From the sequence record MN882542: a DNA stretch of 64,000 nucleotides, one strand, 5' to 3'. The translations under genes were made by a program, and so were the position numbers. Below are positions 11,037 through 11,844 of this stretch, piece after piece. How positions within the stretch are numbered: the first letter of the stretch is position 1; each line of letters begins with the position of its first letter. Source of the DNA: Escherichia phage JN01. Below the pieces are notes generated by a model. That model was not told the DNA's origin. It worked only from the letters and a program-made list of their open reading frames with translations, and did not search any database.

Positions 11037-11047
11037 GTTTTGACAGA

Positions 11048-11114
11048 AGACCAATTACAGCAAGTTTAATCTTATTCATCTGACACGAAATCGGACAAAG
11101 AAGAGATTTGGTCT
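11048..11114 (+). repeat. R-element copy 1: CAGAAGACC...CAGCAA ... GGTCTGG bounded by a 7 bp stem (AGACCAA/TTGGTCT)
   Basis: One of four copies in the tRNA array; the stem base pairs covary between copies. Confidence 0.5.
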
Positions 11115-11127
11115 GGTCATTAAGAAT

Positions 11128-11204
11128 TGCGGGTATAGAGAAAGGGCGTCTCACATGTCTCATTAGCATGGTATCGGCAGGTTCGACTCCTGCACCCGCC
11201 TCCA
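11128..11204 (+). tRNA. tRNA with CAT anticodon (Met or Ile2)
   Basis: T-stem GCAGG/CCTGC, T-loop TTCGACT, acceptor GCGGGT/ACCCGC, CCA encoded; anticodon loop CTCATTA. Confidence 0.6.
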
Positions 11205-11214
11205 ATTTTGCAGA

Positions 11215-11268
11215 AGACCGTATTCAGCAACAAACTACTTTTTGCGGATAAAAGAAAAAACACGGTCT
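11215..11268 (+). repeat. R-element copy 2 (stem AGACCGT/ACGGTCT)
   Basis: Conserved CAGAAGACCG..TTCAGCAA 5-prime half and ACGGTCTGG 3-prime half. Confidence 0.5.
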
Positions 11269-11281
11269 GGCAATGTATTAA

Positions 11282-11358
11282 GGTTAGGAAGCACATAAGG
11301 TATGTGCGGTCGCCTGTTAAGCGAATGGCACAGGGTTCGAATCCCTGACTAACCGCCA
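11282..11358 (+). tRNA. tRNA-Asn (anticodon GTT)
   Basis: D-stem GCAC/GTGC, anticodon loop CTGTTAA, T-arm CAGGG-TTCGAAT-CCCTG, CCA encoded. Confidence 0.75.
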
Positions 11359-11367
11359 AATTTAAAT

Positions 11368-11455
11368 GTGTCGTTATCCCGTAGATGGTAGCGGTGGGGA
11401 CTGTAAATCCCTTGTCATTGAGACTCGGTAGGTTCGACTCCTACACGGCACACCA
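11368..11455 (+). tRNA. tRNA-Tyr (anticodon GTA), long variable arm
   Basis: 88 nt; anticodon arm GGGGA-CTGTAAA-TCCCT; T-arm GTAGG-TTCGACT-CCTAC; CCA encoded. Confidence 0.75.
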
Positions 11456-11461
11456 AATAAA

Positions 11462-11538
11462 GGTTATGTAGTTTAACTGGTTAAAATACTCCCCTGTCAC
11501 GGGAGATGATGAGGGTTCAAATCCCTTCGTAACCGCCA
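11462..11538 (+). tRNA. tRNA-Asp (anticodon GTC)
   Basis: Anticodon arm CTCCC-CTGTCAC-GGGAG; T-loop GGGTTCAAATCCC; CCA encoded. Confidence 0.75.
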
Positions 11539-11628
11539 AATTATAATAAGTATTTCAAAATGCTGTTTGAGAGGGCTATTTAGCCTCTCCCTTAAAGAGT
11601 TCTTACGAGTATTCTTTAAAGGAGCAGA

Positions 11629-11699
11629 AGACCAAATTCAGCAAGTACGTATGATATTTTCAAGCCAATTTAATTTTGAAAAAATTTAAAACTTGGTCT
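11629..11699 (+). repeat. R-element copy 3 (stem AGACCAA/TTGGTCT)
   Basis: Same conserved ends as copies 1, 2 and 4. Confidence 0.5.
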
Positions 11700-11718
11700 G
11701 GCTCAACAAATTTACAGA

Positions 11719-11844
11719 AGACCGTTTACAGCAAAACTTAAACAATCTATTTCTCCGGTAAAGAAAAGGCGAAGGTTCGATTCCTTCACTCGGCAGGTGT
11801 CGAGTTGGTGTAATGGTAGCACTTAAGATGATAAACAACGGTCT
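11719..11844 (+). repeat. R-element copy 4 (stem AGACCGTT/AACGGTCT), enclosing a T-arm-like motif at 11771-11787
   Basis: Longest copy; GAAGG-TTCGATT-CCTTC resembles a tRNA T-arm but no full cloverleaf could be folded. Confidence 0.45.

What the first reader, a model, noticed from the sequence alone, without database searches (positions are those of the whole stretch)
11044..11844. Four hairpin-bounded elements with covarying stems inside the tRNA array
Four intergenic units (11048-11114, 11215-11268, 11629-11699, 11719-11844) share a 5-prime half CAGAAGACC(R)..T.CAGCAA and a 3-prime half GGTCTGG. The closing stem changes in a compensatory way between copies (AGACCAA/TTGGTCT in copies 1 and 3, AGACCGT/ACGGTCT in copies 2 and 4). 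That pattern implies selection on a base-paired structure, not on the primary sequence alone. The interiors differ (54 to 126 nt, AU-rich) and copy 4 carries a tRNA T-arm-like motif without a full cloverleaf. None encodes a protein or folds as a canonical tRNA. Candidates are small stable RNAs co-transcribed with the tRNAs, processing stems, or tRNA remnants.
Basis: seen in the sequence. Interest (0 to 1): 0.75.

Follow-up and report, generated by a model that had tools for sequence, protein, structure and literature searches.

The report
Phage Y-like RNAs beside Ro-like gene
The four stem-closed elements in this Felix O1-like phage's tRNA cluster are most likely small non-coding RNAs that partner the phage's own Ro60-like ring protein encoded just upstream, and their conserved core closely resembles the "Class I" RNAs of social amoebae, whose function is unknown.

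Summary
All four units (11041-11119, 11208-11273, 11622-11704, 11712-11849, + strand) share one base. It has an outer 4-bp helix, an AGA/G internal loop, an inner 7-bp helix and a single-stranded (N)UUACAGCAA. Both helices covary with 100% pairing.

The gene 330 nt upstream (9294-10709; Pfam DUF2828+DUF7788) folds as a Ro60/TROVE ring plus vWA domain. Unit 4 carries a circularly permuted tRNA-like module (V, T, closed acceptor-like stem, D), which is the plan of bacterial YrlA Y RNAs. Units 1-3 are short versions without that module.

The same "stem + CAGCAA" RNAs lie next to homologous genes, on the same strand, in very diverse phages (Mycobacterium, Listeria, Klebsiella, Vibrio and metagenomic). 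Some of these match Rfam YrlA with significant E-values but below the family threshold.

A covariance model built only from Dictyostelium Class I RNAs finds these phage RNAs. Of 49 hits, 41 lie within 1 kb of the gene on its strand.

Verdict: these are a divergent CAGCAA-type variant of Ro-associated Y RNAs. Binding to the protein is inferred, not shown. The link to Class I RNAs is new as far as the library I could search shows, and it can be tested.

The parts
9294..10709 (+). Gene for a 471-aa Ro60-like protein (helical TROVE-like ring plus vWA domain); proposed protein partner of the units
   Evidence: Pfam DUF2828 + DUF7788 + weak VWA. PHROG 850 'RNA-binding protein'. AlphaFold model pLDDT 87.5, pTM 0.87. 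The top 12 Foldseek PDB hits are all Ro60/Rsr/TROVE over the full length, E 6e-9 to 1e-6, TM 0.50-0.66. Homologs in mycobacteriophages are annotated 'Ro-like RNA binding protein' and have the same Pfam make-up.
10728..10848 (+). Two sigma-70-like promoters (10728-10756, 10819-10848) ahead of the tRNA/unit array
   Evidence: TTGACA-17-TAATAT and TTGACA-18-TAAAGT, 10 of 12 matches each. No terminator-like site on the + strand between the units. These are consensus matches only.
11041..11119 (+). Unit 1, short Y-like RNA: UGAC / AGA / AGACCAA - UUACAGCAA - variable hairpin - UUGGUCU / G / GUCA
   Evidence: Sequence. RNAfold base structure. Conserved in all Felixounavirus loci, with an alternative interior in some. 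Second-best hit of the Dictyostelium-derived model in the tRNA region, 12.1 bits.
11208..11273 (+). Unit 2, short Y-like RNA: UUGC / AGA / AGACCGU - AUUCAGCAA - hairpin CUUUU-UGCGGAU-AAAAG - ACGGUCU / G / GCAA
   Evidence: z -2.66. The outer helix switches UUGC/GCAA to UUAC/GUAA in relatives. Rfam Class I RNA model 21.4 bits. Model R1 scores 14.5 bits here and 29.2, 24.8 and 17.4 bits on its orthologs.
11622..11704 (+). Unit 3, short Y-like RNA: GAGC / AGA / AGACCAA - AUUCAGCAA - hairpin UUUUCAA..UUGAAAA - UUGGUCU / G / GCUC
   Evidence: Outer-helix variants GGGC/GCUC, GAGC/GUUC and GGGC/GUCC all still pair.
11712..11849 (+). Unit 4, long YrlA-type RNA. Base: UUAC / AGA / AGACCGU - UUACAGCAA (CAGCAA at 11729-11734). 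Helix CUUAA 11737-41 pairs with UUAAG 11823-27. V hairpin 11750-11766; T arm 11771-11787; closed acceptor-like hairpin 11788-11805; D arm 11808-11822. 3' strand ACGGUCU / G / GUAA
   Evidence: The RNAfold minimum-energy structure gives exactly these four hairpins inside the closing helices. Rfam tRNA matches only the V+T+3' acceptor part, 22-23 bits. The acceptor-like stem has unrelated sequences that still pair in L012/L013 and L014. Model R2, built from 8 phages outside Felixounavirus, hits 11766-11825 at 33.8 bits, E 1e-7, the best hit in the window.

Best explanation
The four units are genes for small structured non-coding RNAs of the Y-RNA kind. Their proposed partner is the phage's own Ro60-like ring protein, encoded on the same strand 330 nt upstream.

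Seen directly in the sequence: the units sit between tRNA genes, 3-9 nt from their neighbours, downstream of two strong promoter-like sites, with no terminator in between.

Inferred: the units are transcribed with the tRNAs and released by the tRNA-processing nucleases (RNase P at the 5' end of the next tRNA, RNase E-type cuts after the previous CCA).

Each RNA closes on itself through two covarying helices separated by a constant AGA/G internal loop. A constant single-stranded UUACAGCAA follows directly.

Inferred: this invariant base is the platform that the Ro-like protein recognises. It would play the part that the bulged helix with the GNCGAA/GGUCCGA motif plays in bacterial and vertebrate Y RNAs.

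The variable upper part is the effector end. In unit 4 it is a tRNA mimic (V, T, closed acceptor-like stem, D), as in bacterial YrlA. In units 1-3 it is a small A/U-rich hairpin.

Inferred by analogy with Rsr-Y RNA-PNPase in Deinococcus and Salmonella, and with phiLo Ro60-Yrl-PNPase: the RNAs tether or gate the ring protein, and so redirect or restrain a host exoribonuclease or tRNA-handling enzymes during infection.
For: 1. The protein fold is Ro60: all of the top 12 PDB matches are Ro60/Rsr/TROVE, full length.

2. The structure is under selection. The base helices are 100% paired, with double changes in 5 of 11 pairs. The T/AS/D core across 8 distant phages is 90.5% paired, with double changes in 14 of 16 pairs and in all 7 acceptor-like pairs.

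3. Unit 4 has the V-T-AS-D order described for YrlA (PMC4201824).

4. Equivalent RNAs next to homologous genes match Rfam YrlA RF02553: L028 41.4 bits, E 9e-6; Klebsiella phage FBKp34 39.6 bits, E 8e-8 on 151 nt; mycobacteriophage Krypton555 38.3 bits.

5. Model R2, built from those relatives, picks unit 4 as the best hit in the window.

6. Synteny. 'Stem + 2-4 nt + CAGCA' units occur at 0.65 per kb within 1.5 kb of the gene on its strand. Elsewhere the density is 0.14-0.23 per kb. 54 of 67 distant loci have at least one.

7. Krypton555, FBKp34 and Listeria phage List-36 each carry 3-4 such units directly flanking the gene, with covarying stems and a constant CAGCAA.

8. For a Listeria phage that encodes an Rsr-like protein (HHpred; the same kind of phage as those matched), very abundant non-coding transcripts are reported within 2 kb upstream of the gene on the same strand (PMC12282133).
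Against: No binding or expression data exist for this phage.

The canonical Ro-binding motif (GNCGAAN0-1G, or CGAA in a bulge) is absent. The nearest string is GCAGAAG.

Rfam YrlA gives no hit on unit 4 even at E<=10, and the hits in relatives are below the family threshold (69 bits).

In this phage, two tRNA genes and two promoter-like sites lie between the gene and unit 1.

Model R2 also scores tRNA-tRNA junctions (up to 27 bits), so it is only moderately specific.

For the look-alike Dictyostelium Class I RNAs, the one direct binder known is an RRM protein (Rnp1A), not a Ro-like protein. A CAGCAA-type RNA could therefore have a different partner.
Confidence: 0.75

Rival explanations
1. The units are real stable RNAs, but their partner is not the Ro-like protein. 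It could be a host factor, a tRNA-handling enzyme or another phage protein such as the DUF5681 protein at 8842-9213. Linkage to the Ro-like gene would then reflect a shared RNA-metabolism module only.
For: No canonical Ro motif is present. Dictyostelium Class I RNAs, which share the CAGCAA core, bind the RRM protein Rnp1A directly. A DUF5681 gene sits immediately upstream of the Ro-like gene in the window and in L085-L087.
Against: The association with the Ro-like gene holds across phages that share little else: Actinobacteria, Firmicutes and Proteobacteria hosts, and genomes from 75 kb to over 250 kb. DUF5681 is a conserved neighbour only within the Felix O1 relatives examined.
Confidence: 0.15
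2. The stems are processing or insulating elements of the polycistronic tRNA precursor (nuclease entry sites or folding insulators), and the pieces released have no function of their own.
For: The units sit 3-9 nt from flanking tRNAs inside one transcription unit.
Against: The helices (4 + 7 bp with an internal loop) are shorter than the longer duplexes that, from general knowledge, RNase III normally acts on (not tested here). This reading does not explain the invariant single-stranded CAGCAA or the conserved tRNA mimic. In Listeria List-36, KVP40-like phages and many metagenomic phages, the same RNAs flank the Ro-like gene with no tRNA beside them.
Confidence: 0.05
3. The units are decaying tRNA genes or tRNA fragments left by rearrangements in the array. 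Unit 4 would be the 3' part of one tRNA fused to the 5' part of the next.
For: Unit 4 contains T and D arms. Annotation pipelines call it a 131-nt 'tRNA-Thr GGT' in phage REP7. Rfam tRNA gives a partial 22-23 bit hit.
Against: The two 'acceptor' strands pair with each other (7 bp) and are joined by a 4-nt loop, with no CCA. In relatives this stem is entirely different in sequence yet still paired. The arrangement is conserved in phages with 30-55% identical Ro-like proteins. Units 1-3 have no tRNA parts at all.
Confidence: 0.03
4. The repeats act at the DNA level, as recombination sites, homing-endonuclease targets or a miniature mobile element spreading in the tRNA array.
For: There are four copies of a 9-mer and a 7-mer in inverted orientation. 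HNH endonuclease genes sit in the array (12649-13041).
Against: The pairing uses G-U pairs that exist only on the + strand. Orientation is always that of the Ro-like gene: 46 of 49 model hits are on that strand. Stem sequences differ between phages while the single-stranded motif is constant. The positions are orthologous across relatives, not scattered.
Confidence: 0.02

Closest known systems
Bacterial and mycobacteriophage YrlA Y RNAs (Rfam RF02553; Chen et al. 2014, PMC4201824)
   Same: They are encoded beside a Ro60-type gene on the same strand, and the ends pair into a stem. Unit 4 has the same permuted tRNA mimic (V, T, closed acceptor-like stem, D). The long units of related phages match RF02553 at E 1e-5 to 1e-7.
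   Different: The protein-facing module differs. Here it is two helices, an AGA/G loop and a single-stranded UUACAGCAA, instead of a bulged helix with GNCGAAN0-1G. Unit 4 itself does not match RF02553. The partner protein is the DUF2828/DUF7788 branch, which Pfam does not call TROVE. Here the RNAs are embedded in a tRNA array.
Dictyostelid Class I RNAs (Rfam RF01414; Kjellin et al. 2021, PMC7919456)
   Same: Both have a terminal 6-7 bp stem with compensatory changes, a conserved 5' AAG and 3' CUG, and the motif (CC)UUACAGCAA directly after the 5' stem strand. Both have a variable A/U-rich interior and are about 50-70 nt long. Some members carry a T-arm-like hairpin: asu_can_20, ppa_can_99, DpuR-22. 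A model built only from 40 dictyostelid RNAs finds the phage RNAs. RF01414 is the best Rfam family for them.
   Different: Class I RNAs are eukaryotic Pol II/III genes with a DUSE promoter, and were reported to be restricted to Dictyostelia. Their only known direct binder is the RRM protein Rnp1A. The phage hits (14-31 bits) are below the Rfam threshold of 41.5. The window's own units add an outer helix and an internal loop.
Thermus phage phiLo Ro60 with Yrl1/Yrl2 (PMC12135203)
   Same: A phage-encoded Ro60-fold protein (among the top structural matches) with small stem-bulge-stem RNAs encoded next to it. Binding to those RNAs and to host PNPase was shown experimentally.
   Different: The phiLo RNAs were picked by their CGAA motif and lie upstream of the gene. 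No CAGCAA motif or tRNA-like module is reported there.
Vertebrate Y RNAs
   Same: The overall logic is the same: the 5' and 3' ends form a helix with an internal irregularity that Ro60 reads, and a variable loop recruits other factors.
   Different: There is no sequence similarity. The vertebrate motif is GGUCCGA with a bulged C, and the genes are transcribed by Pol III.

Membership tests
Y RNA / YrlA (RF02553) | Encoded close to, and on the same strand as, a Ro60-family (TROVE + vWA) gene | tested here: met
   Gene 9294-10709 is on the + strand and unit 1 starts 332 nt after it. The fold search gives only Ro60/Rsr/TROVE as full-length matches. Pfam names it DUF2828+DUF7788, not TROVE.
Y RNA / YrlA (RF02553) | 5' and 3' ends base-pair into a closing stem with an internal irregularity | tested here: met
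   Outer 4 bp, AGA/G loop and inner 7 bp in all four units. 100% pairing, with covariation.
Y RNA / YrlA (RF02553) | Ro-binding sequence GNCGAAN0-1G (CGAA) near the 5' end | tested here: not met
   Read from the sequence: the 5' strands read (G)CAGAAGACC and UUACAGCAA. The best approximation is GCAGAAG in units 2 and 3, with one mismatch.
Y RNA / YrlA (RF02553) | tRNA-like domain in the order V, T arm, closed acceptor-like stem, D arm | tested here: met
   Met for unit 4 only (R2 33.8 bits). Units 1-3 lack it, as the shorter second Y RNAs of other systems do.
Y RNA / YrlA (RF02553) | Score at or above Rfam's gathering threshold (69 bits) | tested here: not met
   No hit on unit 4 at E<=10. Related phage RNAs reach 38-41 bits.
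Y RNA / YrlA (RF02553) | Physical association with the Ro protein; tRNA-type modifications | not testable with these tools
   Needs RIP/EMSA and modification mapping.
Dictyostelid Class I RNA (RF01414) | Short terminal stem joining the 5' and 3' ends, variable in sequence with compensatory changes; about 42-65 nt | tested here: met
   Inner-helix-bounded lengths are 67, 54 and 71 nt for units 1-3. For the covariation.
Dictyostelid Class I RNA (RF01414) | 11-nt motif CCUUACAGCAA next to the 5' stem strand (near-invariant U3, C6, C9, A10, A11) | tested here: met
   Unit 1 AAUUACAGCAA and unit 4 GUUUACAGCAA match 9 of 11, and 5 of 5 near-invariant positions. Unit 2 GUAUUCAGCAA and unit 3 AAAUUCAGCAA match 7 of 11, and 4 of 5.
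Dictyostelid Class I RNA (RF01414) | Conserved ends AAG... and ...CUGU | tested here: inconclusive
   The genomic sequence reads AAGACC...GGUCUGG, so AAG and CUG are present. The RNA ends are unknown, and an extra outer helix extends beyond them.
Dictyostelid Class I RNA (RF01414) | Score at or above Rfam's gathering threshold (41.5 bits) | tested here: not met
   Unit 2 scores 21.4 bits and unit 4 scores 12.8 bits. The best phage relatives score 25.4 and 23.1 bits.
Dictyostelid Class I RNA (RF01414) | DUSE promoter about 60 nt upstream; dictyostelid host | tested here: not met
   This is a bacteriophage, with sigma-70-like promoters.
tRNA (RF00005) | Cloverleaf with a free acceptor end | tested here: not met
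   ARAGORN calls none of the units. Rfam tRNA gives only a partial match on unit 4, 22-23 bits against a threshold of 29. The acceptor-like stem is closed by a loop.

The most novel reading that the evidence does not exclude
The phage units and the Class I RNAs of dictyostelid amoebae are one RNA family: the partner RNAs of the DUF2828/DUF7788 branch of Ro60-like proteins. Pfam and the literature place that branch in phages and in eukaryotes.

Class I RNAs have been known since 2004, are abundant and developmentally regulated, and were reported as unique to Dictyostelia. On this reading they would be Y-RNA analogues with relatives in bacteriophages. Their missing partner would be an amoebal Ro-like protein.

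Conversely, many tRNA-rich phages would carry a previously unrecognised 'stem + CAGCAA' Y-RNA class that the current Rfam models miss.
Probability: 0.4. Interest if true: 0.85.

Novelty: new variant of a known kind. Interest (0 to 1): 0.72.

Why it matters
Ro60 and its Y RNAs form a conserved RNA-surveillance system, found from bacteria to humans, where Ro60 is an autoantigen. Its roles in phages are only starting to be studied.

This finding gives Felix O1-type phages, which are widely used for Salmonella and E. coli typing and biocontrol, a defined set of four candidate Y RNAs. They are currently unannotated, or mis-annotated as pseudo-tRNAs or small ORFs.

It also shows that the same module recurs among the 709 phage records that carry the gene; the units themselves were checked in about 85 loci. 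The module is a Ro-like gene plus several 'stem + CAGCAA' RNAs, one often carrying a tRNA mimic.

The constant single-stranded CAGCAA with covarying helices is a concrete recognition element for mutagenesis.

If the resemblance to Dictyostelium Class I RNAs reflects a shared protein partner, a question open for twenty years becomes directly testable with one pull-down. It would also challenge the view that those RNAs are a dictyostelid invention tied to multicellularity.

Tried and rejected
1. First impression of a T5-type tRNA region. Rejected: the window is a Felixounavirus.

2. Permuted tRNA gene that must be circularised and re-cut, as in red algae. Rejected: the acceptor-like stem is closed by a 4-nt loop without CCA, and the whole plan equals YrlA.

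3. Direct Rfam scans of the window. No YrlA or Y_RNA hit. The link came only through relatives.

4. Sequence search of the protein against PDB: nothing. Only the fold comparison worked.

5. A rigid rule-based extraction of acceptor-like and D stems failed for half the sequences, because stem and loop lengths vary. It was replaced by a checked MAFFT alignment.

6. A plain regex for stem + CAGCA has a high background: about 200 hits in shuffled sequence under the first, looser settings. It is therefore used only as a positional enrichment test, with stricter settings.

7. Whether Dictyostelium encodes a DUF2828 protein could not be tested. The truncated proteome files in the Kjellin supplement gave no match. 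The AlphaFold-database library was unavailable. The literature on DUF2828 and UCP015417 mentions only plants and a tardigrade. The paper listing the four Class I RNA-binding proteins (Avesson 2011) is not held.

8. I tried to map the very abundant non-coding transcripts of Listeria phage CKA15 onto the three units found in List-36. No accession or coordinates could be matched, so this remains suggestive only.
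Full report
WHAT THE WINDOW IS. The region 10700-12300 matches 301 phage records, almost all Felix O1-like (Felixounavirus, Ounavirinae), at up to 99% identity. ARAGORN finds 25 tRNA genes on the + strand between 10875 and 16530. The four units lie in the first part of this array.

CHECK OF THE OBSERVATION. CAGAAGACC occurs on the + strand at 11044, 11211, 11625 and 11715. 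Each copy is followed by ..CAGCAA and later by GGTCTGG. The pattern AGAAGACC-N30-60-GGTCTGG is found twice against 0.01 expected.

RNAfold gives all four the same base. It consists of:
- an additional outer 4-bp helix (UGAC/GUCA, UUGC/GCAA, GAGC/GCUC, UUAC/GUAA);
- an internal loop, 5'-AGA / 3'-G;
- the inner helix;
- the unpaired motif (N)UUACAGCAA or AUUCAGCAA.

From outer helix to outer helix the units span 11041-11119, 11208-11273, 11622-11704 and 11712-11849.

The units are kept at orthologous positions in 18 related loci (L001-L017, L085). Nine distinct base variants exist. On these, 100% of cells are paired and 5 of 11 pairs change on both sides. No shuffle out of 500 reaches the observed score, and sliding the partner strand drops pairing to 17-48%. 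The intermediates are G-U pairs that exist only in + strand RNA.

UNIT 4 IS A PERMUTED tRNA MIMIC. Inside the closing helices, unit 4 folds into four hairpins:
- a 5-bp stem with a 7-nt loop (11750-11766);
- a canonical T arm, GAAGG-UUCGAUU-CCUUC (11771-11787);
- a 7-bp hairpin, ACUCGGC-AGGU-GUCGAGU (11788-11805), occupying the place of the acceptor stem but closed by a loop;
- a D arm, GUGU-AAUGGUA-GCAC (11808-11822).

Rfam's tRNA model can align only the first half, at 22-23 bits. In relatives the acceptor-like stem is replaced by unrelated sequences that still pair: CACACG/CGUGUU in L012/L013 and ACCCUUC/GAAGGGU in L014. The order V, T, closed 'acceptor' stem, D is exactly what Chen et al. 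(2014) described for bacterial YrlA Y RNAs (PMC4201824).

THE UPSTREAM GENE IS Ro60-LIKE. The ORF at 9294-10709 (+) ends 332 nt before unit 1. Pfam labels it DUF2828 + DUF7788 with a weak vWA match. PHROGs calls it 'RNA-binding protein'. A sequence search against PDB finds nothing.

An AlphaFold model built on 37 homologs (pLDDT 87.5, pTM 0.87) matches Ro60 structures as its top 12 PDB hits. These include Xenopus Ro60, Deinococcus Rsr, Thermus phage phiLo Ro60 and a 'TROVE domain' entry. The matches cover the full length, with E 6e-9 to 1e-6 and TM 0.50-0.66. All later hits are isolated vWA domains.

tblastn finds the protein in 709 phage records. They include 95 mycobacteriophages, where the 31-34% identical homolog is annotated 'Ro-like RNA binding protein'. 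That homolog has the same Pfam make-up.

THE SAME RNAs ACCOMPANY THE GENE IN DISTANT PHAGES. I collected 80 loci around homologs from viral contigs and further loci from named phages. Orphan T arms not belonging to any tRNA lie next to the gene, on its strand, in many of them. They sit in the same plan: 5' stem strand, 2-4 nt, CAGCA(A), T arm, closed hairpin, D arm, 3' stem strand, then YG.

Named examples:
- Mycobacteriophage Krypton555 has three units directly after the gene: GGACAC-aga-CAGCAA..GUGUCC, GGACCCC-ca-CAGCAA..T/AS/D..GGGGUCC and GGACGG-uaa-CAGCAA..CCGUCC.
- Klebsiella phage FBKp34 (52% identical protein) has two short units and one long unit.
- Listeria phage List-36 has three units in the 400-nt gap just upstream of the gene.

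A simple search for '6-bp stem + 2-4 nt + CAGCA' gives 0.65 units per kb within 1.5 kb of the gene on its strand. The density is 0.14 per kb on the opposite strand and 0.20-0.23 per kb farther away. 54 of 67 distant loci have at least one unit. The stem sequences differ from phage to phage while CAGCAA is constant.

Rfam contains a YrlA family (RF02553). It matches the long units of three such loci with significant E-values but below the family threshold: 41.4, 39.6 and 38.3 bits against a threshold of 69. It does not match unit 4 of the window.

I aligned the T/AS/D cores of eight phages outside Felixounavirus. 90.5% of cells are paired, 14 of 16 pairs change on both sides, and all 7 acceptor-like pairs do so. 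A covariance model built from that alignment gives its best hit in the whole window on unit 4: 11766-11825, 33.8 bits, E 1e-7. The model also scores tRNA-tRNA junctions, at up to 27.4 bits. Chen et al. raised the same caveat for their models.

AN UNEXPECTED RESEMBLANCE. Among all 4227 Rfam families, the only non-tRNA family that kept appearing on the units was Dicty_Class_I_RNA (RF01414). Unit 2 scores 21.4 bits and unit 4 scores 12.8 bits. In relatives it is the top family: 25.4 bits in L033, and 23.1 and 18.5 bits in Listeria phage List-36. All of these are below the threshold of 41.5 bits.

Class I RNAs of dictyostelid amoebae are abundant RNAs of 42-65 nt and unknown function. They are defined by four features (PMC7919456):
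- a 6-bp terminal stem whose sequence varies, with compensatory changes;
- conserved ends AAG... and ...CUGU;
- an 11-nt motif, CCUUACAGCAA, directly after the 5' stem strand;
- a variable interior.

They were reported to be unique to Dictyostelia. Compare these sequences:
- DdR-21: GUUGAC-CUUA-CAGCAA...GUCAAC-UG
- a metagenomic phage: GGUUCC-UUA-CAGCAA...GGAACC-UG
- FBKp34: GAAGAU-UUA-CAGCAA...AUCUUC-UG
- window unit 4: (AA)GACCGU-UUA-CAGCAA...ACGGUC-UG

Several dictyostelid members even carry a T-arm-like hairpin: asu_can_20 CCUAGGUUCGAUCCCUAG, ppa_can_99 and DpuR-22 GGGGUUCGAAUCCCC.

As an independent test I built a covariance model from 40 dictyostelid sequences only. I searched 782 kb of phage DNA on both strands. 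Of 49 hits at E<=10, 46 are on the strand of the Ro-like gene and 41 lie within 1 kb of it. That zone makes up about 9% of the search space. The binomial P is 4e-35, or 3e-17 after collapsing near-identical loci. The best hits reach 31 bits (E 2e-4).

In the window itself the scores are weak: unit 2 14.5 bits, unit 1 12.1 bits, the 5' part of unit 4 9.7 bits and unit 3 4.1 bits. Even so, units 2, 1 and 4 are the top three hits in the tRNA region. Orthologs of unit 2 reach 29.2 and 24.8 bits. No paper in the searchable library connects Class I RNAs with Y RNAs, Ro60 or phages. None mentions DUF2828 in this context.

HOW IT MOST LIKELY WORKS.

Shown by computation:
- The RNAs are structured and under selection.
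- They are always on the strand of a Ro60-fold gene and usually within a few hundred nt of it.
- One of them is a tRNA mimic.

Seen in the sequence:
- Sigma-70-like promoters lie at 10728 and 10819, with no + strand terminator between the units.
- There are 3-9 nt between the units and the flanking tRNAs.

Inferred:
- The units are co-transcribed with the tRNAs and released by the tRNA-processing nucleases.
- The Ro-like ring binds the invariant base (helices, AGA/G loop, CAGCAA).
- The variable top (tRNA mimic or small hairpin) is used to tether or gate an effector.

The analogy is with Rsr-Y RNA-PNPase in Deinococcus and Salmonella (PMC4201824), and with phiLo Ro60-Yrl, which binds and attenuates host PNPase (PMC12135203).

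Circumstantial support comes from a P100-like Listeria phage that encodes an Rsr-like protein. Non-coding regions within 2 kb upstream of that gene, on the same strand, give by far the most abundant phage transcripts. The authors themselves proposed Y RNAs (PMC12282133). I could not map those regions onto the units.

COMPARISON WITH WHAT IS KNOWN, AND NOVELTY. Phage Ro-like proteins and YrlA-type RNAs in mycobacteriophages have been known since 2014. In that sense the window holds a new member of a known kind.

Four things differ from the described family. First, the protein-facing module is CAGCAA plus two helices and an AGA/G loop, not GNCGAA. Second, there is a series of short units without a tRNA mimic. 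Third, the units are embedded in a tRNA array. Fourth, the Rfam YrlA model fails on this phage. I therefore rate it a new variant of a known kind.

The resemblance to Class I RNAs is the most novel reading. It predicts that dictyostelids encode a DUF2828-type Ro-like protein that binds Class I RNAs. That prediction could not be tested here.

LIMITS. There are no expression or binding data for this phage. The E-values from my own models are rough, because calibration was shortened. Several loci are near-duplicates. The long-unit model cross-reacts with tRNA junctions. The window's own units score only weakly with the dictyostelid model.

Noticed in passing
window 11848-11994 (+): A 147-nt element directly after unit 4 is closed by a roughly 24-bp stem (UUAUCUUUGUAGAUAAG.../...CUUAUCUACAAAGAUAA). 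RNAfold gives -46.5 kcal/mol, z = -6.1. It contains a mini-hairpin, CAGACC-UUAAGCAA-GUCUGG, that echoes the unit motif. It has no Rfam match.
   Followed up: partly
window 12597-12675 (+): A non-canonical tRNA-like gene that ARAGORN misses but Rfam tRNA detects at 31.7 bits. Relatives annotate the orthologous position as tRNA-OTHER or tRNA-Arg(TCT). The HNH endonuclease ORF 12649-13041 starts inside its 3' end.
   Followed up: no
window 14026-14120 (+): A structured spacer between tRNA-Thr and tRNA-Val (-30.7 kcal/mol, z = -2.9). It is closed by AGAGGUC/GACCUCU and contains CUGAAGACC. It may be another small RNA of a different type.
   Followed up: no
window 8842-9213 (+); L085, L086, L087 about 2560-2946: A 119-123 aa DUF5681 protein gene sits immediately upstream of the Ro-like gene in the window and in relatives whose Ro-like proteins are 54-63% identical. 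This is conserved synteny and suggests a functional partner.
   Followed up: no
L084 5003-5116 (Klebsiella phage FBKp34); L039 6895-7015 and 7025-7137: These are normal-order tRNAs with free CCA ends, annotated as over-long tRNAs. They carry the unit's module as an inserted hairpin (ACUUCU-uag-AGAAGU-uuua-CAGCA) between the D arm and the anticodon arm. This is the non-permuted counterpart of the long units.
   Followed up: partly
L070 7330-7428: A unit whose interior has the order D arm, anticodon-like arm, T arm. It is an acceptor-less tRNA inside the GGUUCC/GGAACC + CAGCAA stem (Rfam tRNA 55.7 bits for model positions 5-66). This is a different permutation from unit 4, as reported for Deinococcus Yrn1 against YrlA.
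   Followed up: no
L088 (Listeria phage List-36) 3121-3383 and 6310-7521: Three CAGCAA units lie directly upstream of the Ro-like gene, and an RtcB-type 'tRNA splicing ligase' gene lies 1.3 kb downstream. This recalls the bacterial rsr-yrlBA-rtcBA operon. In the related phage CKA15 the Ro-like protein was detected in purified virions (PMC12282133).
   Followed up: partly
L002 1257-1387 (phage REP7) and other records: Public annotations treat unit 4 as a 131-nt 'tRNA-Thr GGT'. Other units or flanks are annotated as pseudo-tRNAs or small hypothetical proteins. These are probably mis-annotations.
   Followed up: partly
window 11540-11620 (+): Two further small hairpins lie between tRNA-Asp and unit 3: GAGAGGC-uauuu-GCCUCUC and CUUUAAAGA...UCUUUAAAG. 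Their role is unknown.
   Followed up: no
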